A stretch of 64,000 bases of DNA from a virus (Duplodnaviria > Caudoviricetes), in IMG/VR virus record IMGVR_UViG_3300028886_000035, positions 64,001 through 128,000 of that record; one strand, 5' to 3'. Each line of letters starts with the position of its first letter. Positions within the stretch are counted from its first letter, which is position 1. The notes beneath the pieces were generated by a model. The model was given only the letters and a program-made list of their open reading frames with translations. It was not told where the DNA came from and ran no database searches. The position numbers and the translations under genes were made by a program. Of the stretch, positions 1 through 31,879 are shown piece by piece.

Positions 1-341
1 AAATTTTTATCTACTTCAGAATCATATTTAGGTGTTTCTCCATATAAATCCAAATGTTCTCTTACTTCTCTTATTTCATCTTCAATACAAACTAAATATT
101 GGTCTATCCATTTATCAATTTCTTGTTTTGTTAAACCTTCCATTTTTCTCATTCTACTAGCAAATGATTTTTGCATAGAATAAATTAATTCAAAATCAGG
201 TAAATTAACATCAAAATGATTATCTAACATTACCTGTTGAAAAATTTCAGGATTTTTAGCATCTACATATGCTTTATACTTTGCACAATCACATTTTAAA
301 TTGGCACATTGTATTTCTAAATAAGGACATTTGTTATTCAT
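1..341 (-). CDS. All-alpha NTP pyrophosphatase / dimeric dUTPase-like protein (runs off window start)
   Basis: Manual translation MNNKCPYLEIQC...IYSMQKSFASR...WIDQYLVCIEDEIREVREHL; the ExxE helix and MQxxF motif are typical of the dUTPase_2/MazG superfamily; not in the ORF track because it is truncated. Confidence 0.5.
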   Translation of the reverse strand, partial: MNNKCPYLEIQCANLKCDCAKYKAYVDAKNPEIFQQVMLDNHFDVNLPDFELIYSMQKSFASRMRKMEGLTKQEIDKWIDQYLVCIEDEIREVREHLDLYGETPKYDSEVDKN

Positions 342-403
342 CAATAAACCTTCTTCTTATAAAAAAATTAAAGGGAATATAAAAATTCCCTTAGAATTCA
401 ATT

Positions 404-739
404 TTACTTTTTTTCTTCTCTGTTCATAGGAGCGGGTGATTGAGCGTTTCTTAACATTTGACCCAATTTATTATTTCCACCTACTACACTATTAACTGCA
501 TTAATACCTGCTACTGCAAAAATTAATGTTTCAACTATATCTGCCCATACTTGACTTAAAGCACCTGTGGATAAATACATATATCCACCAAATATCAATG
601 ATACTACAAATCCTATCATTAATACTGATACTCTAGTTTCATCAACGGACATTATATTATGAAAGAAATTTGATACCTTTGAACGTTGTTGCGGTTGTTG
701 TTCAATAGTTTGTATATCTTGTTCCATTTTTTCTGTCAC
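404..739 (-). CDS. Two-TM membrane protein, possible holin
   Basis: Two hydrophobic segments (VSVLMIGFVVSLIFGGYMYL; IVETLIFAVAGINAVNSVV) and a charged C-terminus. Confidence 0.4.
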   Translation of the reverse strand: MTEKMEQDIQTIEQQPQQRSKVSNFFHNIMSVDETRVSVLMIGFVVSLIFGGYMYLSTGALSQVWADIVETLIFAVAGINAVNSVVGGNNKLGQMLRNAQSPAPMNREEKK

Positions 740-786
740 CTCTTACAAGAATGACATATTATAAAAAACAAGATTTTATCTTTGTC

Positions 787-1680
787 TTACGATGGTAAAT
801 CTTTTCCATCTGTAATATATGCCTGACAAGAAATATTTTCACAATCTTGACAAGTTTGACAACTACATTGTGATTGACACGTTACTTGTTGGCAACAATT
901 ATTATACATATTGTGGTTTTGACAAATTTGACATGATTGACATTTACATTGAGTTTCACAGGTTTGGCACACTTGACATGGTAACACAGATTGACAGGTT
1001 TGGCAAGCGGTATTTCTTTGACATAAAACTAATTGACAAGTTGTTACCTGACAAGATACTTTTTCGCAGGTTAAAATTGAATAATCACCATTTATTTTTT
1101 GACACGCTTTCCAACTTTTAGTAGAAACACTTATTTTATAATCCCTATCCTTAATATATTGATACACATACGCTTGTATACCATCAGATGGCTTACCTGT
1201 AAATGGGTCATAAGGATATTTAAGCAATTCATAATTCACTTCATATTCATAATTATTGTATTTCGGAGGAAAATTCGTTGGAAGTCTTGCATTACTTGGT
1301 ATTTTTTTAAAATTTTTAAATGCTTTTTTCTTATCTGGGGGGTCATACATATCACGTTTTATATTTAATCCATAATAATTGTTTTCCCATTTGTCATAAT
1401 GAGTTTTGTCATAATATAATTTGTTATCATCATATTCGTCTACGAATTTTTGTTGGCAACGTATTGTTTGACATTCTACTATAGGTGTACAATTACAATT
1501 TTGTACATGTTTTTTATATTCCTCTAATCTTGTTAAAGCATTTGATATATCTATCAAATCTTGACGTTTCATTGTCTTATTTTCTTTTGTTTCTCCACTT
1601 ATATCTCTAAATTTTGTTGGAGTAATAATACCATTAGGAGTATTTGTTATTTCACATTTAAATTTTAAATCATCACTCAT
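787..1680 (-). CDS. Cys-Gln repeat protein, candidate radical-SAM substrate
   Basis: 22 Cys in the last ~107 aa (16 CQ, 3 CE) plus NCNC..CQ..CQ near the N-terminus; ATG at 1680 with a GGTGGTG RBS overlaps the stop of the upstream rSAM gene. Confidence 0.75.
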   Translation of the reverse strand: MSDDLKFKCEITNTPNGIITPTKFRDISGETKENKTMKRQDLIDISNALTRLEEYKKHVQNCNCTPIVECQTIRCQQKFVDEYDDNKLYYDKTHYDKWENNYYGLNIKRDMYDPPDKKKAFKNFKKIPSNARLPTNFPPKYNNYEYEVNYELLKYPYDPFTGKPSDGIQAYVYQYIKDRDYKISVSTKSWKACQKINGDYSILTCEKVSCQVTTCQLVLCQRNTACQTCQSVLPCQVCQTCETQCKCQSCQICQNHNMYNNCCQQVTCQSQCSCQTCQDCENISCQAYITDGKDLPS

Positions 1681-2761
1681 ATACTGCACCACCCAATATT
1701 TTAATTAACTGCATAATCGGATAGTTCATCTGATATGACATTTTACAATAATATTCTCCCCTAGCTTTATCATTTACTAACGGACAACCATTTCTACAAA
1801 TAATCTGTACAAGACATTCGTTACATTTTTTTGATGTATCTTTTGTTTTATCTAAATCAAATACGTTTTTCATTATATCAAAATAGTTATCTCTAATATA
1901 TCCAATTTTTGTATCTGTATTGTGACATTTATATAAATTACCTTGTAAATCCATATTTAATACTTCGCAACCATTCCCACATCTATCTCTATTTGGTACA
2001 AATGATTTCTGATTAATGGCATTACGAATATAACCAATTTTTTCTTCAATAAATTTTTTACGAATAACACTAATCGGTTTATTTTCTTGAAAATGTAATC
2101 TATATTCTTCACATAATTGCGTCATTTGTTCTTGTACTTTATCATAATCAAATTGTTTTAAATCCTGATTTTGCATATTAACATCTAATAGTTCATCAAC
2201 ATTAAAATACAATGTATGACCATGATAATTTTCTACATAATCTCGATTAACTTCTTCACAATCTTCTAAATAATCAAGAATATAATTATATGTACTTAAT
2301 ACACCCGAAAATGAAAAATTATTTAATTTAAAAATATTTTCTTTATTTTCTTTTACCACATCATATCCACGAGTAATTTCACTATTTCTCCCATCCCAAC
2401 TAATTGTTACATGAGAAAAATTTTTATTTAAATATTCAACTTTTTCCTCGTCTAACAATTTACCATTTGTTATCATGGTGAAATATACATTATTTGGCAT
2501 ATTATGTTCTTTTAATCCATTAATAAATTCTTTTATTTTTTCAAAAAATACAAGTGGTTCTCCACCATAAAATTGCAATCCCAAATTTTCATTCTGATTG
2601 CGTGCTATATCATTGATAAAATTATATATATCAGGATTAATATCTTTCCCTAATGCAACATTTACCACGTCATGTTGTAAACAATACTTACAATTCATAT
2701 TACATTCATGACCTAACATAATAAAAATTGTAGATATATTTGTTTGTAAATAATTACGCAT
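1673..2761 (-). CDS. Radical SAM/SPASM domain protein
   Basis: CNMNCKYC, GGEPL and TNG motifs; SPASM cysteines CGNG...KCH...CNECLVQIICRNGCP...YYC. Confidence 0.92.
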   Translation of the reverse strand: MRNYLQTNISTIFIMLGHECNMNCKYCLQHDVVNVALGKDINPDIYNFINDIARNQNENLGLQFYGGEPLVFFEKIKEFINGLKEHNMPNNVYFTMITNGKLLDEEKVEYLNKNFSHVTISWDGRNSEITRGYDVVKENKENIFKLNNFSFSGVLSTYNYILDYLEDCEEVNRDYVENYHGHTLYFNVDELLDVNMQNQDLKQFDYDKVQEQMTQLCEEYRLHFQENKPISVIRKKFIEEKIGYIRNAINQKSFVPNRDRCGNGCEVLNMDLQGNLYKCHNTDTKIGYIRDNYFDIMKNVFDLDKTKDTSKKCNECLVQIICRNGCPLVNDKARGEYYCKMSYQMNYPIMQLIKILGGAVYE

Positions 2762-2803
2762 ACATTACTATCCTTTCATAATTGTATATTATATATATTA
2801 TAT

Positions 2804-2841
2804 AAAAAAAGAGAAGTGTTTTTTAACTTCTCTTTTTTTTT
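2804..2841. terminator. Intrinsic terminator (bidirectional-type hairpin)
   Basis: aaaaaaagagaagt-loop-acttctcttttttt. Confidence 0.75.
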
Positions 2842-2845
2842 AACA

Positions 2846-3427
2846 TTATTTAAATAAATCTTTTGATACTTCATACATAGTGTCTCGTGAATGTAAGGCA
2901 TCTTGATAATCTTCTTCAACTAGCTTATCCCATTCTTCATCTGTATACTTTACAGAACCATCGTCATGTTGAGAATCATATTCGCTAACAGATTGATATA
3001 AATCATCCATAATTTTATCCACTTTTTCAATCATATAATCTATATCATCTTCTAAATAACTCAAACATTTATCATCATGTTTAATACCATTAATCAAATA
3101 TTTAATTACTTCTTCAGAAGCATTAATATCATCACCCGTTCCTAATACTTCAGGTAAGCCAACTTGTTCAATAGCATCTTTTACATAACCATAATTTTCA
3201 CTATTAGAAAGAAGAAAATCAACAAATCCATTAGCAGTTGCTTCATCATGAAAATTATCTAATCCATCAAATGTCATAAACCAATCCTGTAAAGCACTAT
3301 TTGCACGCCATGTATCATCAATGTAATCCATCAATTCATCTTCTGTCCAATCTTTATCAGACAAAACTTGTTTTAACTGTTCAACAGTATTAATTGATTT
3401 AAATTCTTCTGCTACTTTTTTAAGCAT
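2846..3427 (-). CDS. Acidic hypothetical protein with basic N-terminal tag (MLKKVA)
   Basis: ORF track; ATG at 3427 follows an AAGGTGA RBS; D/E-rich body. Confidence 0.7.
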   Translation of the reverse strand: MLKKVAEEFKSINTVEQLKQVLSDKDWTEDELMDYIDDTWRANSALQDWFMTFDGLDNFHDEATANGFVDFLLSNSENYGYVKDAIEQVGLPEVLGTGDDINASEEVIKYLINGIKHDDKCLSYLEDDIDYMIEKVDKIMDDLYQSVSEYDSQHDDGSVKYTDEEWDKLVEEDYQDALHSRDTMYEVSKDLFK

Positions 3428-3441
3428 TATATATATCACCT

Positions 3442-4554
3442 TTATCCTTTAAAATTCAACATAAATTCATATTCTTCTTTTTGTTTTTCATTTTTTATTA
3501 TATCTAATTCGTATTTTAATTTTAAAATCGGATAATATCTTAATGTAGCCATTCTACAATAAAATTCATCACGAGAAGTTTGTGGTATCTTTGGACAAGC
3601 ATTTCTACAAAGAGACTGTACAGGACAATCATTACAACCATTTAAACCGTGTTCAATCGTTTTATCATGGTCATTAATATTTTTCAATACATCAAAATAA
3701 TTATCATGTATTGTTCCCATCACTTCGGAATCGCCGTGACAACAGTAAAGATTCCCTTGTAAATCTAAATTGATATTTTCTCCACCGTTTCCACAAAATA
3801 ATCTAGTCGGTGTTTTATCACAACCACAATTACAATCTTCTATAAATTTAATATACATTGGATTACTTATAATTTTATCATTTTTGATACAATATAAATA
3901 TTCTTCACAAATTTCTTCCATTTGCTGATAAAATTTATTTTCATCAAACTTCTTTAATTGTGGATTTGGCAATTCTGTATCGTACTGCATTAAATTTTCT
4001 ATATGTACAGATATTTCATGACCAAATTCTTTTTGTACTTCATAACAATCATCTAAATAGTCTTTTGGGTAACAATAAGAAGAAAATACTCCGTCAAAAC
4101 CCCAAAACCCTTCTTTATCTAATTTAAATAAATTTTCTTTATTTTGCGCTATAACATCATAACTACGAGTTATTTTACTGTTTCTCCCATCCCACGATAA
4201 ACCAAATCCTTTTAAATTTTCTTTTATCCACGGAATCGTTTTATCGTTTAATAGCTTACCATTTGTTACCATACTAAAAGTAATATTTTCATTTCCTTCT
4301 TTAGATTTTACCATATCTACTACTTTTTGCATAGTATCAAAATATACTAAAGGTTCTCCACCCCAAAATAATATATTAATCGGATGAATATTATTAGCTA
4401 TATCCAATAACCAATCTATTATCATAGGGTCAATTTCTTTCGCCATAGCATGATTTACTACATCATGTTCAATACAATATCTACAACTTAAATTGCATTT
4501 AAAGCCCATCATTAAATACACTTGATGTATTGGCAAATTTAATACATTTAGCAT
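3442..4554 (-). CDS. Radical SAM/SPASM domain protein, paralog of 1673..2761
   Basis: CNLSCRYC, GGEPLV, TNGKLL and SWDGRNS.ITR.YDV shared with 1673..2761; SPASM cysteines present. Confidence 0.92.
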   Translation of the reverse strand: MLNVLNLPIHQVYLMMGFKCNLSCRYCIEHDVVNHAMAKEIDPMIIDWLLDIANNIHPINILFWGGEPLVYFDTMQKVVDMVKSKEGNENITFSMVTNGKLLNDKTIPWIKENLKGFGLSWDGRNSKITRSYDVIAQNKENLFKLDKEGFWGFDGVFSSYCYPKDYLDDCYEVQKEFGHEISVHIENLMQYDTELPNPQLKKFDENKFYQQMEEICEEYLYCIKNDKIISNPMYIKFIEDCNCGCDKTPTRLFCGNGGENINLDLQGNLYCCHGDSEVMGTIHDNYFDVLKNINDHDKTIEHGLNGCNDCPVQSLCRNACPKIPQTSRDEFYCRMATLRYYPILKLKYELDIIKNEKQKEEYEFMLNFKG

Positions 4555-4558
4555 AACC

Positions 4559-5788
4559 TCAATCCTTTATTCCTTGTAATATCATACCTGTATTTGTCCA
4601 ATCTGCTTTATCAATTGCTTCTTTTACAGTCATAACATGAAGATGTATTCTTTCCGTATCTTCAATAACACCATGTACTTGATTATCATTTTTAACTTTA
4701 TTTATTTCTTCTTCTGATAATTCAACTGTGAACAAAGCTATCTTATGAGAACATAATGTAGCAGCAGACTGTTTCATATCTAATTGTTTAAATCTATTTT
4801 TATTTAATTTTAATCCAGTTTCTTCTTCTAATTCTTTTGAAGCGGTTAACAACATATCATCTAATGGATTTAGTGAACTTCCACCAGGCAACTCATATAC
4901 CATTTCCGTTTCATTATTAATTGGTGTTCTAAATTCTTCACATAAAACAATTTCCGTATCGAGCAAATTATCTTTTTTACAATAAGCTAAGATATAACTC
5001 ATATCTGTTCGTGCAACAACAAATTCATTATCTTTAACCCTATCTTCTTTTGCAATATATACAGAAGGATGAAAAATCTCTAAAAACATTTGTTTTGCTT
5101 TTGGCATAACAAATTCATATTCCATATTAAAATCAGTTAAATAATTTCCAACATTTAACTGTTGTTTATACCAATTTTGAAACTGCTTTGTTTTATATAT
5201 ATGCATTGGTATTTTAACTTCCGTATCTTCACGATAAACACCTTGCCCTAAATATTCTACTGTAGCTTTTAATGTATCCTTTAATGTATTATGCCACTCA
5301 TACTTATCTCTTGAAATTAATTTCAAATATTCCATTCTTGGTGCTTCATCAGGACAACCACAAAACAGTTTGTTTGAATTTAAAAATCGACCAAATTCTA
5401 CATTTGTTGTTAAGCCAATCATTTCAAAATCCGAACGCATTTCTCTAGGAATCCAAAATACAATAGCATCACAAGCGCACATACAACTATATTCCCAATC
5501 TAATTGAGCTTTTAACGTAAATGTACGCTTCATTTCTTCACCTTTGATATTGTTATCATCATAAGGTACTTTTGCTCTATCTTCAGGAATATATACAACA
5601 CCATTATATCCCATTTCTTCTAAAATTTGTAATGCTTCTTTTTTCCACGATAATTCATATTCCTTTCGTGGAACTGGTCCAGCTAAGAACATGGACTTTG
5701 TTTCATCTTTTGGCATATCTTCTCGTGAATATACAACTGTCATTTTATTCATTCCTAAACGTTTCATTAAATCTTTCCTTTCATACAC
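4559..5788 (-). CDS. Nucleoside 2-deoxyribosyltransferase-like + NUDIX hydrolase fusion
   Basis: N-terminal FLAGP..SW..IPE..WE...DAIVFWIPR..TTNVEFG; C-terminal Nudix box ELPGG...ASKELEEETGL. Confidence 0.8.
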   Translation of the reverse strand: MYERKDLMKRLGMNKMTVVYSREDMPKDETKSMFLAGPVPRKEYELSWKKEALQILEEMGYNGVVYIPEDRAKVPYDDNNIKGEEMKRTFTLKAQLDWEYSCMCACDAIVFWIPREMRSDFEMIGLTTNVEFGRFLNSNKLFCGCPDEAPRMEYLKLISRDKYEWHNTLKDTLKATVEYLGQGVYREDTEVKIPMHIYKTKQFQNWYKQQLNVGNYLTDFNMEYEFVMPKAKQMFLEIFHPSVYIAKEDRVKDNEFVVARTDMSYILAYCKKDNLLDTEIVLCEEFRTPINNETEMVYELPGGSSLNPLDDMLLTASKELEEETGLKLNKNRFKQLDMKQSAATLCSHKIALFTVELSEEEINKVKNDNQVHGVIEDTERIHLHVMTVKEAIDKADWTNTGMILQGIKD

Positions 5789-6572
5789 TTTTTAATTTAG
5801 CAAGTCGCGTAACTTGTTTATCATGGCAATCATAATAATATACTTTATTTACATTTGTCTGTGATTTTATTGCATCTGCTACTTCTTCTCGTGTACAATT
5901 TGATAAATTATCATCTATAAATGCCATATTCATAGCTATATGTCCAAAAGCAAATACATCAGAACCTACATCTTTTTCCATTGTATCATTATCTATACGT
6001 TGTATATCTTTATCATTATCATATCCTTGTTTTAAAAATACACGTTTGATTAATTGCGTATGTGTTTCAAAATTTTTTCCTATATATATTTTACCATCTA
6101 CATATACAAATGGATTTTCACGATTATTATAATCCAATTTATACGTTAAAAATGTACTATCTCCTACATTGTCTTTCTTATTTTTTAAGTCCTCCATATA
6201 TTCTATTGTATCAGGATAATATTTGTCTTTATATTTTAAATAATTTTGATAATATCCTTTTCTATCTGATAATTCCGTTAATATATCTTCAGGTAAATTT
6301 TCAGATACTTCAAAATCCTCTATATATACTCCTATATTTTCTTCACAAGTAAATAAAAAATCTGTATCTTCTATCAAATTATACACATATAAATCTATAT
6401 CTGCATCTTCATTATTTTCATCTTTTTTACTAAAATAATTTTTCAAATATTCTTCACTAAAATATTTTGATATATCTGAATCTTTGTCTATTCCTTCTAA
6501 ACATTTATCAAAATTATTCCCTAACAAATCTTTTAATTCATATATATCATCTATATATATTTCTTCATCCAT
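5781..6572 (-). CDS. Acidic protein with conserved TH/FGH C-terminal domain (paralog family member 1)
   Basis: Likely start MDEEIY at 6572 (the ORF-track extension crosses a terminator and the upstream gene); RENPFVYVDG..THTQL..FGHI..AF..KVY..RLAK. Confidence 0.75.
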   Translation of the reverse strand: MDEEIYIDDIYELKDLLGNNFDKCLEGIDKDSDISKYFSEEYLKNYFSKKDENNEDADIDLYVYNLIEDTDFLFTCEENIGVYIEDFEVSENLPEDILTELSDRKGYYQNYLKYKDKYYPDTIEYMEDLKNKKDNVGDSTFLTYKLDYNNRENPFVYVDGKIYIGKNFETHTQLIKRVFLKQGYDNDKDIQRIDNDTMEKDVGSDVFAFGHIAMNMAFIDDNLSNCTREEVADAIKSQTNVNKVYYYDCHDKQVTRLAKLKSV

Positions 6573-6645
6573 ATTTTCACAACCCTGTATATTATCTATA
6601 AAAAAAATAAATAAAGACAAGTTTTTTACAACTTGTCTTTTCATT

Positions 6646-7575
6646 TTATTTTGTATAGCATCTGAATTTAGCAAGGCGTTGAACCAAATAATTATTCGTA
6701 TCATAAAAATATGCTTTGTCTACGCCCAATTGTTTAATACAAGCCTTTGCTACATCATCTTCACTTGCACCTGATTCAAGTACTTCAATAAATGCCATAT
6801 TATCAACAATATGTCCAAATGCAATATCTTTTGTACCTGTTAAACGTTCCATTCTTGCTTGGCTAGGTCTACTTCCTCCAATATCACCATCACCTTCAAA
6901 ATCTTTTGGAATCCTATCTCCTTTTCCTACATCTTCCAAATATTTTTCTAAAATTTGTGCATGGGTTTCTCCCTTATCACCTTTGATACAATCACCTGCT
7001 ATATAAATGAACGCTGCGTCTCTTGTATCATAATCTAAATTTTCTGTAGATTCTACTTCTATTGTATCACCAATATTGTCATCTAATTCATTTAAATCAG
7101 ACCACTCATCTACACTTGCAGATTTTTCATCATAATCTAATTCTAGTGTTTCGTCTTGATTTTCTTCCCCAAATCCATACGAACGTTCATTATCTTCCAT
7201 ATACATATCTTTTGCTCTATCAAATTCTTCTTCAAAATCTGTATCACTAGGAATATCATCTGCTATTTCCGATACACAATTATCCGTTATGGATAATTCA
7301 TCTTCTGAATTATAATCACCTAACCATGAATTGTATTCGCTTACTAATACATCAGAATTAATGATACCATCTAAATATTCTTCTGAATTAATGTTTTTTA
7401 CTCCCTCATATGCCGTTTGATTCATATCACAATCGAAATCAGCCGTTGGGAATAATTCTGCAAGTGTATCATATATTCCATCTTCTGTAATACTATAAGC
7501 AGAATTAATAAAATCTTTATAATCAGAATCTAAATAATCTTTTAAATCATTTGCATTATCAAAAACTATTTCCAT
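6646..7575 (-). CDS. Acidic protein, TH/FGH paralog family member 2
   Basis: RDAAFIYIAG..THAQIL..FGHIVDNMAF..RLAKF; similar along its full length to 7715..8647. Confidence 0.8.
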   Translation of the reverse strand: MEIVFDNANDLKDYLDSDYKDFINSAYSITEDGIYDTLAELFPTADFDCDMNQTAYEGVKNINSEEYLDGIINSDVLVSEYNSWLGDYNSEDELSITDNCVSEIADDIPSDTDFEEEFDRAKDMYMEDNERSYGFGEENQDETLELDYDEKSASVDEWSDLNELDDNIGDTIEVESTENLDYDTRDAAFIYIAGDCIKGDKGETHAQILEKYLEDVGKGDRIPKDFEGDGDIGGSRPSQARMERLTGTKDIAFGHIVDNMAFIEVLESGASEDDVAKACIKQLGVDKAYFYDTNNYLVQRLAKFRCYTK

Positions 7576-7682
7576 TATACATCCATCCTTATTATCTTTG
7601 CTAATCTTTTTACTACATCTGTTTTAGAATTTCTACTTACCATATATACTTTGTCTACTTTTAATTGCTTCTTACAAACATT
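7575..7682 (-). pseudogene. Orphan C-terminal stub of the TH/FGH family
   Basis: Manual translation NVCKKQLKVDKVYMVSRNSKTDVVKRLAKIIRMDV*, preceded by an in-frame TAG; its stop overlaps the next ATG (TAATG). Confidence 0.75.
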
Positions 7683-7714
7683 CTACTATTCCTTTTCTTA
7701 AAATATTATCTTTT

Positions 7715-8647
7715 TTATTTCGTATAAACTTTCCATTTAGCCAAACGTTTAACTACACCGCTGTAATTATCTAAGAAATAAACCTTATCTACTTTTAATT
7801 GTTTCTTACAAGCCTTGGCTACATCATCTTCATTTGCTCCTGTTTCCAAAACTTCAACAAACGCCATATTATCTACAATATGCCCAAACGCTACATTATC
7901 TGTATCTACCAAACGTCTCATACGTGACTGCGTTGGTCTACTTCTTGCTATATCATCACCTTTTAAATCCTCTGGTATCATATCTTCATTTCCAAGTTCT
8001 TCCATGTAATCCGCTAAAATCTGCCCATGTGTTTTTCCTTCTTCGCCATAGGCTACATCACCATCTATATATACAAACGCACCATCGCGATTATCATAAT
8101 CTAATGACCTTCCATCTTCAATGTTTGTTTGTTCCCCTATTTTATCATCTACTTCTGCTAAATCTGACCAATCATCAACAGAATTATCTTCTTCATTATA
8201 CTCTAAATCTAGGGTTATATCATCATCTTCTTCACCAAAACCTGAACAATTACGCTCACAATAAGATACATAACTATTCAATGCTTTATCAAAATTTTCC
8301 TCAATATCCGTTTTGCTTGTTAGTTCCCCTGCCATTTCAGAAACACAGTCGCTAGAAACATCTAATTCATCTTCTGTATTATAATCAGATAGCCAATTTT
8401 CGTATTCATCTAATAACAAGTCATTATTTGTAATATCATCAATATAATCATTGACATCTAAATTACTTAACCCTTCATAAGCAGTTTCGTTCATTTCATC
8501 GTCACCGTTACGTGTTGGATAAAATGCTTCTAATTCATCACGAATACCTCCTTCTGTAATGCAATAAGGTGAATTTAAAAATTCATTAAAATCTGAATCT
8601 AAATAATCTTTCGCTTCGCTTATTGTATTAAAAACAATCTTTGCCAT
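7715..8647 (-). CDS. Acidic protein, TH/FGH paralog family member 3
   Basis: RDGAFVYIDG..THGQIL..FGHIVDNMAF..CKKQLKVDKVY..VVKRLAKW. Confidence 0.8.
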   Translation of the reverse strand: MAKIVFNTISEAKDYLDSDFNEFLNSPYCITEGGIRDELEAFYPTRNGDDEMNETAYEGLSNLDVNDYIDDITNNDLLLDEYENWLSDYNTEDELDVSSDCVSEMAGELTSKTDIEENFDKALNSYVSYCERNCSGFGEEDDDITLDLEYNEEDNSVDDWSDLAEVDDKIGEQTNIEDGRSLDYDNRDGAFVYIDGDVAYGEEGKTHGQILADYMEELGNEDMIPEDLKGDDIARSRPTQSRMRRLVDTDNVAFGHIVDNMAFVEVLETGANEDDVAKACKKQLKVDKVYFLDNYSGVVKRLAKWKVYTK

Positions 8648-8770
8648 TTAAACATCCTCCTTTGTATATAAAACCACTTTTGCCAATCTCTTGACTACAT
8701 TATTATTATGATTTACATAATATACTTTATCTATTATATATCTATCCTTTATTTTATTTCGTGTATTATA
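8648..8770 (-). pseudogene. Second orphan C-terminal stub of the TH/FGH family
   Basis: Manual translation YNTRNKIKDRYIIDKVYYVNHNNNVVKRLAKVVLYTKEDV*; no start codon; in frame after the TAA of 8771..8950. Confidence 0.7.
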
Positions 8771-8950
8771 TTATCCTCTTTTGGCTTTCATATATTCATA
8801 CCAATAATATATGTTTTTATCTCCATTTACCGAACTAATAAAAAACCACACTATCAATACTGTAACTATAATCGAACCTATTGTATTAACAACTACCTGT
8901 AATATATAAGAAAAAATTAGTACCATTAAAAACGCCGTCAAACTATTCAT
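8771..8950 (-). CDS. Small two-TM membrane protein (59 aa)
   Basis: Manual translation MNSLTAFLMVLIFSYILQVVVNTIGSIIVTVLIVWFFISSVNGDKNIYYWYEYMKAKRG; start overlaps the upstream stop. Confidence 0.6.
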   Translation of the reverse strand: MNSLTAFLMVLIFSYILQVVVNTIGSIIVTVLIVWFFISSVNGDKNIYYWYEYMKAKRG

Positions 8951-9398
8951 TACTATCTTCCCTTTCTATACGATTATTATATTTCTCTATTAAATAGTTT
9001 TTAATTGATGTCCTCATATTAGATAAAAATTCGTGATATTCTGTATATTGACAATTTAATTTTATCTGCAATATTTCTACATCATTGAAATTCGTCTTTA
9101 CAAAATTGTTTAGACTACCATATTCACACGTTATATCATTTATCCCTTTATCATTCAAAAGTAATGTGAACATAATTAATCTCGTATTCTTACGATATGT
9201 TTTTAACCTGATTACATGACGTGTATTTATCTTTGCATACTCATTCATATATTCCGTTATTTCATCTACTATCGTCTTTAAATAAGGAAAATCCATAGAT
9301 TTATATATATAAAATGATAGATTGTTAATATGGATAAAATCTATCGCTTTATCCATTACTCTCTTGACTCTATCATTTAATCTTACATTGTCTACCAA
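8943..9398 (-). CDS. Hypothetical protein
   Basis: ORF track, operon context. Confidence 0.55.
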   Translation of the reverse strand: MVDNVRLNDRVKRVMDKAIDFIHINNLSFYIYKSMDFPYLKTIVDEITEYMNEYAKINTRHVIRLKTYRKNTRLIMFTLLLNDKGINDITCEYGSLNNFVKTNFNDVEILQIKLNCQYTEYHEFLSNMRTSIKNYLIEKYNNRIEREDSNE

Positions 9399-30636: not shown

Positions 30637-31614
30637 TTATTTCCATTCATCCCCCATCTGAAATAGCCCATGCACATGATAACAAGTTCCATTGTTCGAT
30701 TGATGTTGTAAATTACATACTATGTTATGTTTTTGTTCTTTCTTTAAATCAAAATCTTTATCAAATATTGATTTTTTCGTAGTAATCGCTTGTTCACAAG
30801 AACATGATGTTAATCTACCGTCTAATTCAATATAACAATAATTTTGGAAAATTGGACATTTTTCACCACAATATTCATTGTGTTGTAAAAAACTTAATCT
30901 TTCCCCTTTTATATTATCTATCAAAAACTTAGATAGTTCTTTATCAAAATATAAACAGGAAGCTACATTTTTAACTGTTTCTTCTGCATTATAATCTCTA
31001 CGAACATAAGATATAACTAGATTATTGCCATACTTTTTATGTATTTTATAATATAAATGTTCTATTAACTGTTTATAATCTTTTGTTTTTTGTTTGTCTA
31101 ACAAAAGATTAAATTCCAATTCAACAAATTTATAAGAATTAGCCATTCTAACTAATCTATCAATATGTTCAATATACTTTCTTGGATTACGTAAAAATGT
31201 TTCATAATGTGCAGAACAACATATTAATATTGGCATATGTAATGTAGCAATTTCACAACATTCTTTAAAAAACTTTTCATCATTTCCATTTGTCATAATA
31301 TTAACTAAACATTTTGGTTTTAAATAATCTAATGCGAAAAACAAGTCTTTATAACATGAAGGTTCTCCACCTATAAATGTTAATTGTTGTAATCCATGAA
31401 TTTGGTTTTTTATAAAATCACAAACTTTTTTTGTTTCCTCATGTGTCATATTTCTATAATATTCTTTATAAGTATGACGATTCAAACAGTAAGAGCATCT
31501 TTCATTACACACATTGCCAAAATACCATTCTACTTGATATTTTTTATACCTAGAATGATAAACAACATTATAACTTTTAAAATGAATTTTTTTTATTTTT
31601 CTATAACGTTTCAT
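30637..31614 (-). CDS. Radical SAM protein with C-terminal Twitch-like Cys cluster
   Basis: CNERCSYC, GGEP, TNG; CP..YIELDG..SCSC..C. Confidence 0.85.
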   Translation of the reverse strand: MKRYRKIKKIHFKSYNVVYHSRYKKYQVEWYFGNVCNERCSYCLNRHTYKEYYRNMTHEETKKVCDFIKNQIHGLQQLTFIGGEPSCYKDLFFALDYLKPKCLVNIMTNGNDEKFFKECCEIATLHMPILICCSAHYETFLRNPRKYIEHIDRLVRMANSYKFVELEFNLLLDKQKTKDYKQLIEHLYYKIHKKYGNNLVISYVRRDYNAEETVKNVASCLYFDKELSKFLIDNIKGERLSFLQHNEYCGEKCPIFQNYCYIELDGRLTSCSCEQAITTKKSIFDKDFDLKKEQKHNIVCNLQHQSNNGTCYHVHGLFQMGDEWK

Positions 31615-31615
31615 T

Positions 31616-31879
31616 TTATCTTCCTATCCAACGCAAAGAAGAAGCCCACGGACCAGGAATACCAGGACGTGGGCTTGTATCTCTTTGGTCATTATCATAA
31701 TCAACCAAATTGGTAGGATTTATAAGAAACGTCTTAGCATCATTATTTGTATGTTCTTTTAACTCATAATTTTTATGTCCTTTGTCATAAAAATCTTTTT
31801 CATTATCTTCTATAATACGGCGATATTCTTTTTCAAGTTCGTCCATATCCAATTCAGATAATTTGACTAAACGTTTCAT
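31616..31879 (-). CDS. Hypothetical protein (MKRLVKLS tag)
   Basis: ORF track. Confidence 0.6.
   Translation of the reverse strand: MKRLVKLSELDMDELEKEYRRIIEDNEKDFYDKGHKNYELKEHTNNDAKTFLINPTNLVDYDNDQRDTSPRPGIPGPWASSLRWIGR

What the first reader, a model, noticed from the sequence alone, without database searches (positions are those of the whole stretch)
787..4554. Phage-encoded RiPP-like module: two paralogous rSAM/SPASM enzymes and a Cys-Gln-repeat substrate
Seen: two closely related radical SAM enzymes with complete SPASM cysteine sets and no obvious N-terminal RRE. The first is translationally coupled (ATGAGTGA overlap) to a 297-aa protein with a helical N-terminus ending in NCNC..CQ..CQ, a Cys-free insert of about 115 aa, then 22 Cys in about 107 aa, 19 of them followed by Q or E. 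Known: SPASM maturases of SCIFF/ranthipeptide and CXXX-repeat systems form Cys-to-carbon thioether crosslinks on Cys-rich precursors. Inference: the phage crosslinks a large protein, possibly a virion fibre or host-interacting effector, and the two paralogs may act as a pair or on different Cys spacings (CxxC versus CxxxxC). The CQ pattern with a passenger domain is not a precursor class I recognise.
Basis: partly seen in the sequence, partly recalled or inferred. Interest (0 to 1): 0.85.

Follow-up and report, generated by a model that had tools for sequence, protein, structure and literature searches.

The report
Phage radical-SAM enzyme with Cys-Gln-repeat protein
A giant cattle-gut phage carries a conserved operon in which an iron-sulfur "radical SAM" enzyme sits directly before a protein made largely of Cys-Gln repeats. 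The enzyme most likely staples that protein with non-reducible sulfur-carbon bridges, a chemistry known from small bacterial peptides but not described for this enzyme-substrate family or for phages.

Summary
On the minus strand lie rSAM1 (4554-3442), a 193-aa acidic protein, rSAM2 (2761-1673) and a 297-aa protein (1680-787). That protein has 27 Cys, 22 of them followed by Gln or Glu. rSAM2 and the Cys-Gln (CQ) gene overlap by ATGAGTGA.

- **Enzymes.** Both have CX3CX2C plus the seven-Cys SPASM motif and no RiPP recognition element (RRE).
- **Linkage.** In every contig with flanking sequence that carries a CQ gene, an rSAM2 homologue lies directly upstream.
- **Leader.** The N-terminus (NGxIxxTxF box, helix, NC(G)NC) also heads 98-146-aa CQ-repeat precursors next to 33-39%-identical enzymes. 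These lie behind tail-fibre genes in Negativicutes prophages.
- **Insert.** The "passenger domain" is a lineage-specific insertion. Most relatives are 170-203 aa.
- **rSAM1.** It is only 42% identical to rSAM2 and is separated from it by a terminator-like hairpin. It occurs only in lineages whose CQ protein carries an insert.

Best reading, confidence 0.55: rSAM2 recognises the leader without an RRE and installs Cys-to-Gln/Glu thioether bridges. This would resemble PapB, CteB, QhpD and the archaeal CrpC/CrpA pair, but no curated family threshold is met. The chemistry and the protein's role are inferred, not shown.

The scan has noted similar Cys-Gln ladders next to radical SAM genes in other phage genomes. 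I rate this a new variant of a known kind.

The parts
3442..4554 (-). rSAM1: RRE-less radical SAM/SPASM enzyme (370 aa), a diverged paralogue of rSAM2
   Evidence: Radical_SAM and Fer4_12 pass the Pfam cut-offs. The best NCBIfam match is PapB at 103.8 bits, below its cut-off. It is 42% identical to rSAM2. It forms a long-branched sister clade to the jumbo-phage rSAM2 clade. Strain variants are 11 synonymous to 3 non-synonymous.
2846..3427 (-). Acidic, all-helical 193-aa protein of unknown role, following rSAM1 after a 14-nt spacer
   Evidence: No family hit in Pfam, NCBIfam or PHROGs. A 72%-identical homologue occupies the same position in L006/L026 and is absent from L012. The AF2 model is helical with low confidence (pLDDT 51), so the fold, including whether it is RRE-like, is undetermined. 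It has one Cys.
2804..2839 (-). Terminator-like hairpin (A-tract, 7-bp GC-containing core, U-tract) followed by TATAAT-like boxes and an AAAGGA ribosome-binding site before rSAM2
   Evidence: The fold has dG -14.7 kcal/mol and z -4.86, and 0 of 200 shuffles fold as well. RNA-library contigs from two studies break at about 2768-2780 and resume at 2864-2918, while DNA contigs run through. This is only a weak hint.
1673..2761 (-). rSAM2: RRE-less radical SAM/SPASM enzyme (362 aa), the conserved partner of the CQ protein
   Evidence: Pfam and the SPASM domain model are passed. It is 68% identical to the single enzyme of short-form relatives. The best PDB match is CteB 5WGG, aligned from CteB residue 96 onward. 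Strain variants are 5 synonymous to 1 non-synonymous.
1498..1680 (-). CQ protein residues 1-61: leader-like N-terminus (NGIITPTKF box, then helix ..L..I..AL..LE.Y)
   Evidence: It is conserved across the jumbo-phage and prophage clades. A leader HMM finds the neighbours of distant enzymes at E 1e-9 to 1e-17. It contains the highest-confidence element in the AF2 model, helix 39-56, in blocks of mean pLDDT about 56-65.
1453..1500 (-). CQ protein residues 61-76: first Cys cluster, NCNC..CQ..CQ
   Evidence: These columns are invariant.
1114..1452 (-). CQ protein residues 77-189: Tyr/Lys/Asn-rich, Cys-free insertion
   Evidence: It is present only in the window protein and P0001-P0003. P0015 has a different insertion at another position, and 11 short forms have none. 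Of the six listed non-synonymous strain variants (five amino-acid positions), two fall in this insert (P114L, V185A); the rest fall in the leader (T31) and at S201, just inside the next annotated part and outside the conserved Cys/Gln columns.
811..1113 (-). CQ protein residues 190-290: array of 22 Cys, 19 followed by Q or E, with Cys-Cys spacings mainly 3 and 5
   Evidence: Columns are nearly invariant. The strain variants that fall within residues 205-285 of the array are all synonymous. AF2 pLDDT is about 25-30.
787..810 (-). CQ protein C-terminal tail (..DGKDLPS) and stop codon
   Evidence: The motif CENISCQAY..DGKDL is conserved across the jumbo-phage clade.
404..739 (-). Conserved small two-transmembrane protein (111 aa), the last gene of the rSAM2-CQ unit. 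It is followed by a terminator-like site at 371-392.
   Evidence: An ORF of 100-126 aa directly follows the CQ gene in all jumbo-phage relatives. It has no family hit.

Best explanation
rSAM2 and the Cys-Gln-repeat protein are an enzyme-substrate pair of RiPP-like design, carried by a 281-kb phage of the bovine gut.

1. The roughly 60-residue N-terminus of the CQ protein (NGxIxxTxF box plus an amphipathic helix ending at NC(G)NC) serves as a leader. The enzyme recognises it directly, because it has no RRE domain.
2. The enzyme then works along the Cys array. Reductive cleavage of SAM gives a 5'-deoxyadenosyl radical. This abstracts a side-chain hydrogen from a Gln or Glu (or from Asn or Asp in the prophage versions).
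3. The carbon radical is captured by a Cys thiolate held at an auxiliary SPASM cluster. The result is a non-reducible thioether (ranthionine-type) bridge.
4. Repeating this about 20-30 times would turn an otherwise unfoldable Cys-Gln tract into a covalently laddered, redox-insensitive module.

rSAM1 is a later duplicate of the enzyme. It occurs only where the substrate has acquired a large insertion. It may process a part of the split substrate that rSAM2 no longer reaches, or it may have another target.

**Shown:** gene order, translational coupling, conservation of linkage, leader and Cys-Q/E columns, enzyme class, purifying selection, and presence in RNA libraries.

**Inferred:** that the CQ protein is the substrate, the thioether chemistry, the acceptor residue, and any virion role.
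For: 1. **Linkage.** An rSAM2 homologue lies directly upstream of, and usually overlaps, every CQ gene found with flanking sequence. Jumbo-phage contigs: L001-L003, L006/L026, L012, L014-L016, L181 and the P0006 contig. L007 shows only an unidentified, cut-off 323-residue ORF overlapping the CQ gene start. More distant loci: L019, L021-L024 and L101-L113.
2. **Shared leader.** Substrates whose enzymes are only 33-39% identical share the same leader (leader HMM E 1e-9 to 1e-17; alignment). Their cores range from 5 to about 30 Cys.
3. **Conserved Cys-Q/E pairs.** 82% of 402 Cys are followed by Q or E, and 74% of all Gln follow a Cys. Q/E exchange occurs at fixed columns. This fits a donor-acceptor pair better than metal binding alone.
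4. **Enzyme type.** The best NCBIfam hits are PapB, SCIFF/CteB, CcpM and QhpD, ahead of sactisynthase and sulfatase maturase. The best solved relative is the ranthisynthase CteB (profile E 2.6e-31). The six CteB catalytic-proximity positions (PMC10288494) map to L28, Y65, I97, S121, H280 and N281 in rSAM2: 2 identical, 3 conservative, 1 different. This is my own mapping.
5. **No fold.** AF2 with the family alignment gives pLDDT of about 25-30 in the Cys array, and the ESM Atlas model of short-form homologue P0004 has a mean pLDDT of 0.45, as expected for a core awaiting modification.
6. **Precedent.** The SPASM enzyme CrpC installs ranthionine bridges on a large Cys-repeat protein with a C-x-x-Q/D motif (PMC13692751). 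QhpD does so on QhpC (cited there).
7. **Selection.** Strain variants that fall among the conserved Cys/Gln columns are synonymous only, and both enzymes show mostly synonymous change.
8. **Operon structure.** rSAM2, CQ and the 2-TM gene lie between two terminator-like hairpins.
Against: - There is no biochemical or proteomic evidence for any modification.
- No curated maturase family threshold is met: PapB 104-112 bits against 340, SCIFF 81-96 against 425, TIGR04463 33-39 against 525.
- Every characterised thioether maturase cited here has an RRE. These enzymes have none, and no separate RRE gene is nearby.
- Gln has not been reported as a thioether acceptor in the papers I read. PapB needs a carboxylate (PMC12373016).
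- Three enzymes nested inside the CQ-linked prophage clade (L114, L116, L117) have no CQ gene within 4 kb. The enzyme can therefore persist without this substrate, or it has a further one.
- The core contains C-x2-C-x2-C-x3-C stretches that could bind iron-sulfur clusters or metals.
Confidence: 0.55

Rival explanations
1. The CQ protein is a metal-binding or iron-sulfur-binding protein, metallothionein-like or polyferredoxin-like. It might act as a cluster donor, an electron partner or a metal store for the phage's many radical SAM enzymes. On this view it is not their substrate.
For: The protein is 9-14% Cys with spacings of 2-5 residues. A conserved C-x2-C-x2-C-x3-C stretch resembles a [4Fe-4S] motif. 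The phage encodes at least five radical-SAM-like genes that need clusters and electrons. Disorder in AF2 models also fits an apo metal-binding protein. CrpA-type proteins are induced on pyrite (PMC13692751).
Against: No Fer4, metallothionein or other model matches, even at E up to 10. Near-invariant Gln or Glu after each Cys is not a known feature of metal sites. The conserved roughly 60-residue leader, shared with 98-146-aa precursors of very different core length, is typical of modified precursors. Enzyme and CQ genes co-occur one to one, rather than one CQ gene serving a genome's whole set of enzymes.
Confidence: 0.15
2. The CQ protein is the substrate, but the chemistry is not a side-chain thioether. 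Alternatives are Cys-to-alpha-carbon (sactionine) bridges, oxidation of Cys to formylglycine as in the RRE-less anaerobic sulfatase maturase, or thio-oxazole or carbon-carbon formation.
For: The enzymes are the size of the anaerobic sulfatase maturase (about 365 aa) and, like it, lack an RRE. That enzyme is the third-best solved relative (64.9 bits) and a consistent NCBIfam hit (54-58 bits). Sactisynthases are polyphyletic and hard to tell from ranthisynthases by sequence (PMC10288494). Catalytic-proximity position 3 is Ile, as in the sactisynthase StsB, not Thr as in CteB.
Against: Ranthisynthase-type models score about twice as high as sulfatase-maturase or RumMC models, and CteB 112 bits against 65 bits. 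The C-H-(N/Q) signature after the auxiliary-cluster Cys matches CteB. The sulfatase motif C-x-[AP]-x-R is absent. The conserved Q/E partner suggests a side-chain acceptor.
Confidence: 0.15
3. The main target of this enzyme family is another phage protein, such as a tail-fibre-module protein. The CQ proteins would then be an optional accessory substrate or a decoy.
For: L114, L116 and L117 keep the enzyme, plus the conserved proteins of about 125 aa and about 275 aa and a second radical SAM gene. They lack CQ genes. The prophage cassettes always follow tail-fibre genes. Sister lineages L025 and L115 have the enzyme next to other genes.
Against: In the jumbo phages the proteins of about 125 aa and about 275 aa have no homologue in the window or in L017, while the enzyme-CQ overlap is strictly kept. 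CQ-less cases are a minority nested within CQ-linked clades, which suggests loss. Only 4 kb either side of each enzyme was examined.
Confidence: 0.1

Closest known systems
CrpC/CrpA of Methanococcus voltae (TIGR04463 radical SAM/SPASM enzyme installing ranthionine bridges on a Cys-repeat protein; PMC13692751, 2026)
   Same: A SPASM radical SAM enzyme is encoded next to a large, repetitive, Cys-rich protein that has a conserved N-terminal recognition region. The motif pairs Cys with Q or D. The Cys-rich region has a low-confidence predicted fold.
   Different: CrpC has an N-terminal RRE and the phage enzymes have none. The TIGR04463 model scores only 33-39 bits against a cut-off of 525. CrpA has a 17-residue repeat, not C-Q-x or C-Q-x-x-x. 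CrpA/CrpC is archaeal and chromosomal, not phage-borne.
SCIFF/ranthipeptide maturase CteB (PDB 5WGG/5WHY) and PapB/PapA (freyrasin)
   Same: CteB is the best solved relative and PapB the best NCBIfam model. All share the seven-Cys SPASM motif and the C-H-(Q/N) signature after an auxiliary-cluster Cys. All act on repeated Cys-x(n)-acceptor motifs downstream of a leader.
   Different: Scores are far below the equivalog cut-offs. There is no RRE, since alignment starts at CteB residue 96. The substrates are 98-300 aa, not about 45 aa. The presumed acceptor is Gln or Glu immediately after each Cys, whereas PapB needs a carboxylate placed C-terminal to the Cys (PMC12373016).
QhpD/QhpC (quinohemoprotein amine dehydrogenase gamma-subunit maturation)
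   Same: Thioether bridges from Cys to Asp or Glu are installed on a protein subunit that carries a leader. The enzyme is a consistent NCBIfam hit at 68-83 bits.
   Different: QhpD uses an RRE and makes three bridges in an enzyme subunit. The curated cut-off is 453 bits. The genomic context is unrelated.
CXXX-repeat radical SAM target system (TIGR04114/PF27846 target, TIGR04115 maturase), including the phage tail-module versions noted earlier in this scan
   Same: These are phage-borne radical SAM/SPASM enzymes next to hyper-Cys-rich repeat proteins, often behind tail-fibre genes.
   Different: PF27846 does not match the CQ proteins even at E up to 10. TIGR04115 is not among the 25 best models for either enzyme. 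The repeat is C-(Q/E)-x with spacings of 3 and 5, not Cys at every fourth residue. No helper protein is present.
Anaerobic sulfatase-maturing enzyme (anSME, PDB 4K36-4K39)
   Same: It is an RRE-less SPASM enzyme of about 370 aa that acts directly on a protein's Cys.
   Different: The score is lower (54-65 bits). No sulfatase gene and no C-x-[AP]-x-R motif is present. It acts on a single site, not an array.

Membership tests
Radical SAM superfamily (PF04055) with SPASM domain (TIGR04085) | A CX3CX2C cluster motif and a Pfam score above the gathering threshold | tested here: met
   Both enzymes score 42.4 bits against a cut-off of 29.5. Cys20, Cys24 and Cys27 are present in both.
Radical SAM superfamily (PF04055) with SPASM domain (TIGR04085) | The seven-Cys SPASM motif CX9-15GX4C ... 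CX2CX5CX3C ... C | tested here: met
   In rSAM2 these are C261, G274, C279, C313, C316, C322, C326 and C339. They are invariant across 14 family members, including rSAM1. TIGR04085 scores 34.1 bits against 27 for rSAM2. For rSAM1 the motif is seen by alignment only.
PapB-family ranthipeptide maturase (NF047865) | A score above the curated equivalog cut-off of 340 bits | tested here: not met
   The scores are 103.8 bits (rSAM1) and 111.5 bits (rSAM2).
SCIFF maturase (TIGR03974) with SCIFF precursor | An enzyme score of at least 425 bits and a six-Cys-in-forty-five precursor | tested here: not met
   The enzymes score 95.6 and 80.9 bits. No Pfam or NCBIfam precursor model matches the CQ protein.
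Characterised ranthisynthases cited here (CteB, PapB, QhpD, CrpC) | An N-terminal RiPP recognition element that binds the leader | tested here: not met
   The enzyme core starts at about residue 10. Alignment to CteB begins at chain residue 96. No PqqD-like or RRE hit appears in the enzymes or in neighbouring ORFs.
Characterised ranthisynthases cited here (CteB, PapB, QhpD, CrpC) | A thioether from Cys sulfur to a beta or gamma carbon, shown by mass spectrometry or NMR | not testable with these tools
   This needs co-expression or in vitro assay followed by tandem mass spectrometry.
TIGR04463 (CrpC-type maturase of large Cys-rich proteins) | A score of at least 525 bits | tested here: not met
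   The scores are 39.4 and 33.0 bits.
CXXX-repeat system (TIGR04115 maturase, PF27846/TIGR04114 target) | The target matches the CXXX-repeat model and the maturase matches TIGR04115 at 350 bits or more | tested here: not met
   The CQ proteins have no Pfam hit at E up to 10. TIGR04115 is absent from the best 25 models of both enzymes. The dominant Cys spacings are 3 and 5, with 4 rare.
Anaerobic sulfatase maturase (TIGR03942) | A score of at least 349 bits and a sulfatase substrate with C/S-x-[AP]-x-R | tested here: not met
   The scores are 53.9 and 58.2 bits. The motif is not seen in the CQ sequence, and no sulfatase family was found among the neighbouring ORFs scanned.
RiPP-like precursor (leader plus core) | A conserved N-terminal leader, a variable Cys-rich core, and a gene adjacent to the modifying enzyme | tested here: met
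   The leader is conserved across clades while the core ranges from 5 to about 30 Cys. Adjacency holds in all CQ loci with flanking sequence.
RiPP-like precursor (leader plus core) | Leader removal and export (protease and transporter genes in the cluster) | tested here: not met
   No protease or ABC transporter gene lies in the operon. The only other gene is a small two-transmembrane protein.

The most novel reading that the evidence does not exclude
Phages of gut anaerobes may use an RRE-independent radical SAM enzyme to turn a Cys-Gln-repeat protein into a ladder of Cys-to-Gln thioether bridges. Gln was not among the acceptors reported in the papers read here. The product would be a redox-proof structural or adsorption-related virion part rather than a secreted antibiotic. 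In the lineage of this window, a duplicated enzyme (rSAM1) would have co-evolved with an inserted Tyr/Lys-rich domain in the substrate.
Probability: 0.3. Interest if true: 0.8.

Novelty: new variant of a known kind. Interest (0 to 1): 0.62.

Why it matters
If the inference holds, enzymatic thioether stapling extends from small bacterial peptides, and one recently described archaeal protein, to phage proteins of up to 300 residues. It would also add a new donor-acceptor motif (Cys-Gln/Glu) and an enzyme that reads its leader without the usual recognition domain.

The family offers compact test substrates of 98-120 aa. These could be used to study RRE-independent leader recognition and to engineer multiply stapled proteins.

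For phage biology, it would show that abundant rumen and gut phages invest several iron-sulfur enzymes in covalent modification of their own proteins. This one encodes at least five radical-SAM-like genes.

The rSAM1/insert pattern is a small natural experiment in enzyme-substrate co-evolution.

Tried and rejected
- **Complex prediction.** rSAM2 with CQ residues 1-80 scored 0.02, which is no verdict. It counts neither for nor against binding.
- **CQ protein structure.** AF2 with a 15-row alignment gave mean pLDDT 37.6 and no fold to search with. The ESM Atlas holds the short form P0004 at pLDDT 0.45 and returned only meaningless structural neighbours. I ran no fold searches because both models were of too low confidence.
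- **The 193-aa acidic protein.** AF2 gave pLDDT 51, all helical, which is uninformative beyond a helical tendency. BLASTP against the CQ protein found no similarity, so it is not a decayed CQ copy.
- **Phage GenBank collection.** There was no DNA match for 1-9000 and no protein match for the CQ protein. rSAM2 found only relatives of at most 38% identity, in jumbo phages of Erwinia and Ralstonia, in Campylobacter and Achromobacter phages and in faecal contigs.
- **Exhaustive profile search of 1.84 billion representatives.** Only four strong clusters and two weak short relatives appeared, so the CQ family is narrow.
- **Prohead-protease idea.** I considered whether the invariant L-E in the leader helix is a T4-type (L/I-x-E) cleavage site marking a capsid-targeting sequence. 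I rejected it as a general feature because the Glu is not conserved in the prophage leaders.
- **RNA libraries.** Contigs cover all four genes, but such libraries can hold DNA and contigs give no expression level. I take this as presence only. The break at the hairpin is a weak hint.
- **Literature.** Searches for phage ranthipeptide or radical SAM Cys-rich systems found no description of this module.

Full report
**What is there.** The window is part of a 281,186-bp virus record judged 98% complete. The region is AT-rich (26-29% GC) and almost all genes are on the minus strand. Read in the direction of transcription, the genes are:
- a deoxyribosyltransferase-like/NUDIX protein (5788-4559);
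- rSAM1 (4554-3442, 370 aa);
- an acidic protein (3427-2846, 193 aa from the ATG its homologue uses);
- a 76-nt spacer;
- rSAM2 (2761-1673, 362 aa);
- the Cys-Gln protein (1680-787, 297 aa);
- a small two-transmembrane protein (739-404).

rSAM2 and the CQ gene overlap as ATGAGTGA. The CQ protein has 27 Cys. Twenty-two of them lie in residues 193-285, and 19 of those are followed by Q or E. Four more sit at residues 62-75, and a Cys-free stretch of 117 residues lies between the two groups.

**The enzymes.** Both pass the Pfam Radical_SAM and Fer4_12 models. Both carry CX3CX2C at residues 20-27. Both keep the seven SPASM cysteines that are invariant in a 14-sequence family alignment.
- Their best NCBIfam matches are thioether-forming maturases: PapB at 104-112 bits, then SCIFF/CteB, CcpM, QhpD and Nif11-type. 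Every one of these is far below its curated cut-off.
- The best solved relative is the ranthisynthase CteB (5WGG; profile E 2.6e-31). The alignment starts at CteB chain residue 96, after its RiPP recognition element. These enzymes therefore lack an RRE.
- No PqqD-like gene lies nearby.
- I mapped the six CteB catalytic-site proximity residues (F112, F152, T186, S210, H363, Q364; PMC10288494) through the alignment. In rSAM2 they correspond to L28, Y65, I97, S121, H280 and N281. Two are identical, three conservative and one different. This suggests a CteB-like active site but is not a formal classification.
- The two enzymes are 42% identical to each other, so they are paralogues but not close ones.

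**The CQ protein is a conserved family with a leader.**
- A word-indexed search found 15 clusters. An exhaustive profile search of 1.84 billion representatives found only four strong clusters plus two weak short relatives. The family is narrow.
- Most members are 170-203 aa and lack the middle segment. The roughly 115-residue Tyr/Lys/Asn-rich segment of the window protein occurs only in its closest relatives (P0001-P0003). P0015 has an unrelated 55-residue insertion at a different loop. The 'passenger domain' is therefore a lineage-specific insertion into a single Cys-rich module.
- Cys and the following Q/E are invariant or nearly so. Across 15 members, 82% of 402 Cys are followed by Q or E, and 74% of all Gln follow a Cys. 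Cys-Cys spacings are mostly 3 and 5.
- AF2 with the family alignment gives pLDDT of about 25-30 over the array. Its highest-confidence stretch (block means of about 56-65) covers residues 21-60 and includes the leader helix 39-56. The ESM Atlas model of a short form is also poor.

**Linkage.**
- *Jumbo-phage relatives.* In every contig that carries a CQ gene with flanking sequence, an rSAM2 homologue lies directly upstream and usually overlaps it. This holds for L001-L003, L006/L026, L012, L014-L016, L181 and the P0006 contig. L007 is cut off within the upstream ORF. These contigs are up to 395 kb long.
- *Shared gene order.* Several of these contigs show the same neighbourhood: capsid gene, UDP-glucose dehydrogenase, deoxyribosyltransferase/NUDIX, rSAM, CQ, a small membrane protein, a dUTPase_2-like protein, then a helicase.
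- *Viral contigs.* A scan with an enzyme alignment found 38%-identical enzymes in L021-L024. Each is followed by two tandem ORFs of 120-146 aa that start MAKNGTINKTTFTD, continue with a helix ending NVDNCGNC, and then run through CQxCQ repeats.
- *Bacterial genomes.* The same scan found 13 loci in Acidaminococcus, Megasphaera, Succiniclasticum, Selenomonadaceae and relatives with the same arrangement.
- *Leader model.* An HMM built only from the jumbo-phage leaders plus the two weak relatives finds these precursors at E 1e-9 to 1e-17. The alignment shows a shared NGxIxxTxF box, a helix and NC(G)NC.
- *Prophage context.* The cassette sits directly behind tail-fibre genes (PHROG tail-fibre hits). 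It also includes conserved proteins of about 125 and about 275 aa and a second, shorter radical SAM gene.
- *L019.* The enzyme is followed by a 67-aa version with five Cys, then by cysteine/methionine-metabolism and transporter genes.

**Exceptions.** Three enzymes nested inside the CQ-linked prophage clade (L114, L116, L117) have no CQ gene within 4 kb. The same is true of sister lineages L025/L115 and the Elusimicrobiota loci. Every CQ gene has an enzyme, but not every enzyme has a CQ gene. This keeps open a second substrate, or loss of the CQ gene.

**The second enzyme.**
- rSAM2 is the orthologue (68%) of the single enzyme in short-form phages. rSAM1 is about 41% identical to both.
- In a quick maximum-likelihood tree, rSAM1-like sequences (window, L026, L012) form a long-branched clade sister to all jumbo-phage rSAM2 sequences (SH-aLRT 98). 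This points to a duplication within this phage lineage followed by divergence (the careful search did not finish).
- rSAM1 occurs in three sequences: the window, its relative G002/L026 (85% identity in the rSAM2 match), and L012. These are exactly the ones whose CQ protein carries an insert, and the inserts are of two independent kinds.
- rSAM1 is absent at the locus in L001, L014, L181 and the P0006 contig. It is also absent from the whole 86%-complete record G001. The sample is small and not phylogenetically independent, so this is a lead, not a result.
- rSAM1 follows the upstream NUDIX gene by 4 nt and is followed by the acidic protein. After that comes a hairpin (2804-2839; dG -14.7 kcal/mol, z -4.86) with A- and U-tracts, then TATAAT-like boxes and a ribosome-binding site before rSAM2.
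- A second terminator-like site follows the membrane-protein gene. rSAM2, CQ and the membrane protein therefore look like their own unit.

**Population and expression data.**
- The stretch occurs nearly unchanged in bovine and pig gut metagenomes from 13 studies, and in six runs recorded as metatranscriptomic.
- Contigs from two RNA libraries cover all four genes. They break at the hairpin region, where DNA contigs continue. DNA carry-over cannot be excluded, so I take this as presence only.
- Strain variants among the conserved Cys/Gln columns are synonymous only. Amino-acid changes fall in the variable part of the leader, in the insert and at S201 between the first two Cys of the array. The enzymes show 5:1 and 11:3 synonymous to non-synonymous changes. 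All three genes appear to be under purifying selection.

**Interpretation.** The design matches a RiPP-like pair: a conserved leader, a variable Cys-rich core, an adjacent SPASM enzyme of the thioether-forming kind, and a core that does not fold on its own.
- The closest published analogue is CrpC/CrpA, where a SPASM enzyme installs ranthionine bridges on a large Cys-repeat protein with a C-x-x-Q/D motif (PMC13692751). QhpD/QhpC is another protein-level case cited there.
- The present system differs in several ways. It lacks an RRE, whereas CteB, PapB, QhpD and CrpC all use one (PMC13692751, PMC12373016). Its repeat is C-(Q/E)-x. It is phage-borne. It meets no curated family threshold.
- I therefore file it as working like a ranthisynthase/precursor pair, not as a member of any named family.
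- Where the product goes is unknown. The prophage cassettes' position behind tail-fibre genes hints at a virion-associated role. The absence of protease and exporter genes argues against a secreted bacteriocin.

**Relation to earlier notes of this scan.** Other agents have reported Cys-(Q/E) ladders next to radical SAM genes in other gut-phage genomes (e1-2300415, e1-1941012, e1-3084362, e1-1941027). They have also reported CXXX-repeat cassettes behind tail-fibre genes (for example e1-3425189). Sequence look-ups with the L104 prophage precursor and its enzyme found no overlap with those windows; the window's own proteins were not looked up, so this appears to be a different family with the same theme. 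Those notes are unchecked and I do not count them as evidence.

**Verdict.** The finding is a new variant of a known kind, with a clear and cheap biochemical test.

Noticed in passing
L017:5754-9316 (G000:C1 about 49.7-53.3 kb, roughly 10.7 kb before the window): This is a second module in the same phage. Two overlapping radical SAM/SPASM genes (347 and 358 aa; best NCBIfam match PapB, 121 and 69 bits) precede a 461-aa protein. The last 40 or so residues of that protein hold 9 Cys, none followed by Gln. A 910-aa protein lies upstream and glycosyltransferase-like genes downstream.
   Followed up: partly
window 30637-31614 (-): A fifth, very divergent radical-SAM-like ORF (325 aa, CNERCSYC motif). 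It lies downstream of a 1075-aa repetitive protein, after a short 87-aa ORF (31616-31879). It has weak BLAST matches to the short second enzyme of the prophage cassettes and no NCBIfam hit at E 1e-8.
   Followed up: partly
L019:1022-4472 and L020: In another phage-like contig the enzyme is followed by a 67-aa leader-plus-five-Cys ORF. Then come a Cys/Met-metabolism PLP enzyme (PF01053) and a dicarboxylate/amino-acid symporter (PF00375). These might be auxiliary genes for cysteine supply, or an insertion that truncated the CQ gene.
   Followed up: no
L021-L024, L101-L117 (Negativicutes prophages and viral contigs): There is a conserved tail-end cassette: tail fibre, enzyme A (about 370 aa), two CQ precursors with different leaders, a protein of about 125 aa (IKGNVxTxxGPV), a protein of about 275 aa (MLKIYYNE...), enzyme B (about 320 aa) and a protein of about 230 aa. 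L114, L116 and L117 have the cassette without the CQ genes.
   Followed up: partly
window 1114-1452 (-): The insert in the CQ protein is unusually rich in Tyr (19 of 113 residues), Lys, Asn and Pro. I noted a loose resemblance in composition to adhesive or low-complexity proteins. It has no homologue outside the three closest relatives.
   Followed up: no
window 404-739 (-): A small protein with two predicted transmembrane helices is conserved directly after the CQ gene in all jumbo-phage relatives. It lies inside the same terminator-bounded unit. Its role is unknown. Holin-like, immunity or export functions are possible.
   Followed up: partly
L014:18144-19439 and L016:10699-11767: Closely related jumbo-phage contigs differ by insertions of IS605 OrfB/TnpB-like genes (PF07282, PF01385) at different places near the helicase and HD-domain genes.
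   Followed up: no
window 400-4600: Near-identical copies (over 99%) of this stretch occur in bovine and pig gut metagenomes from 13 studies dated 2016 to 2025, so this phage lineage is widespread in livestock guts.
   Followed up: partly
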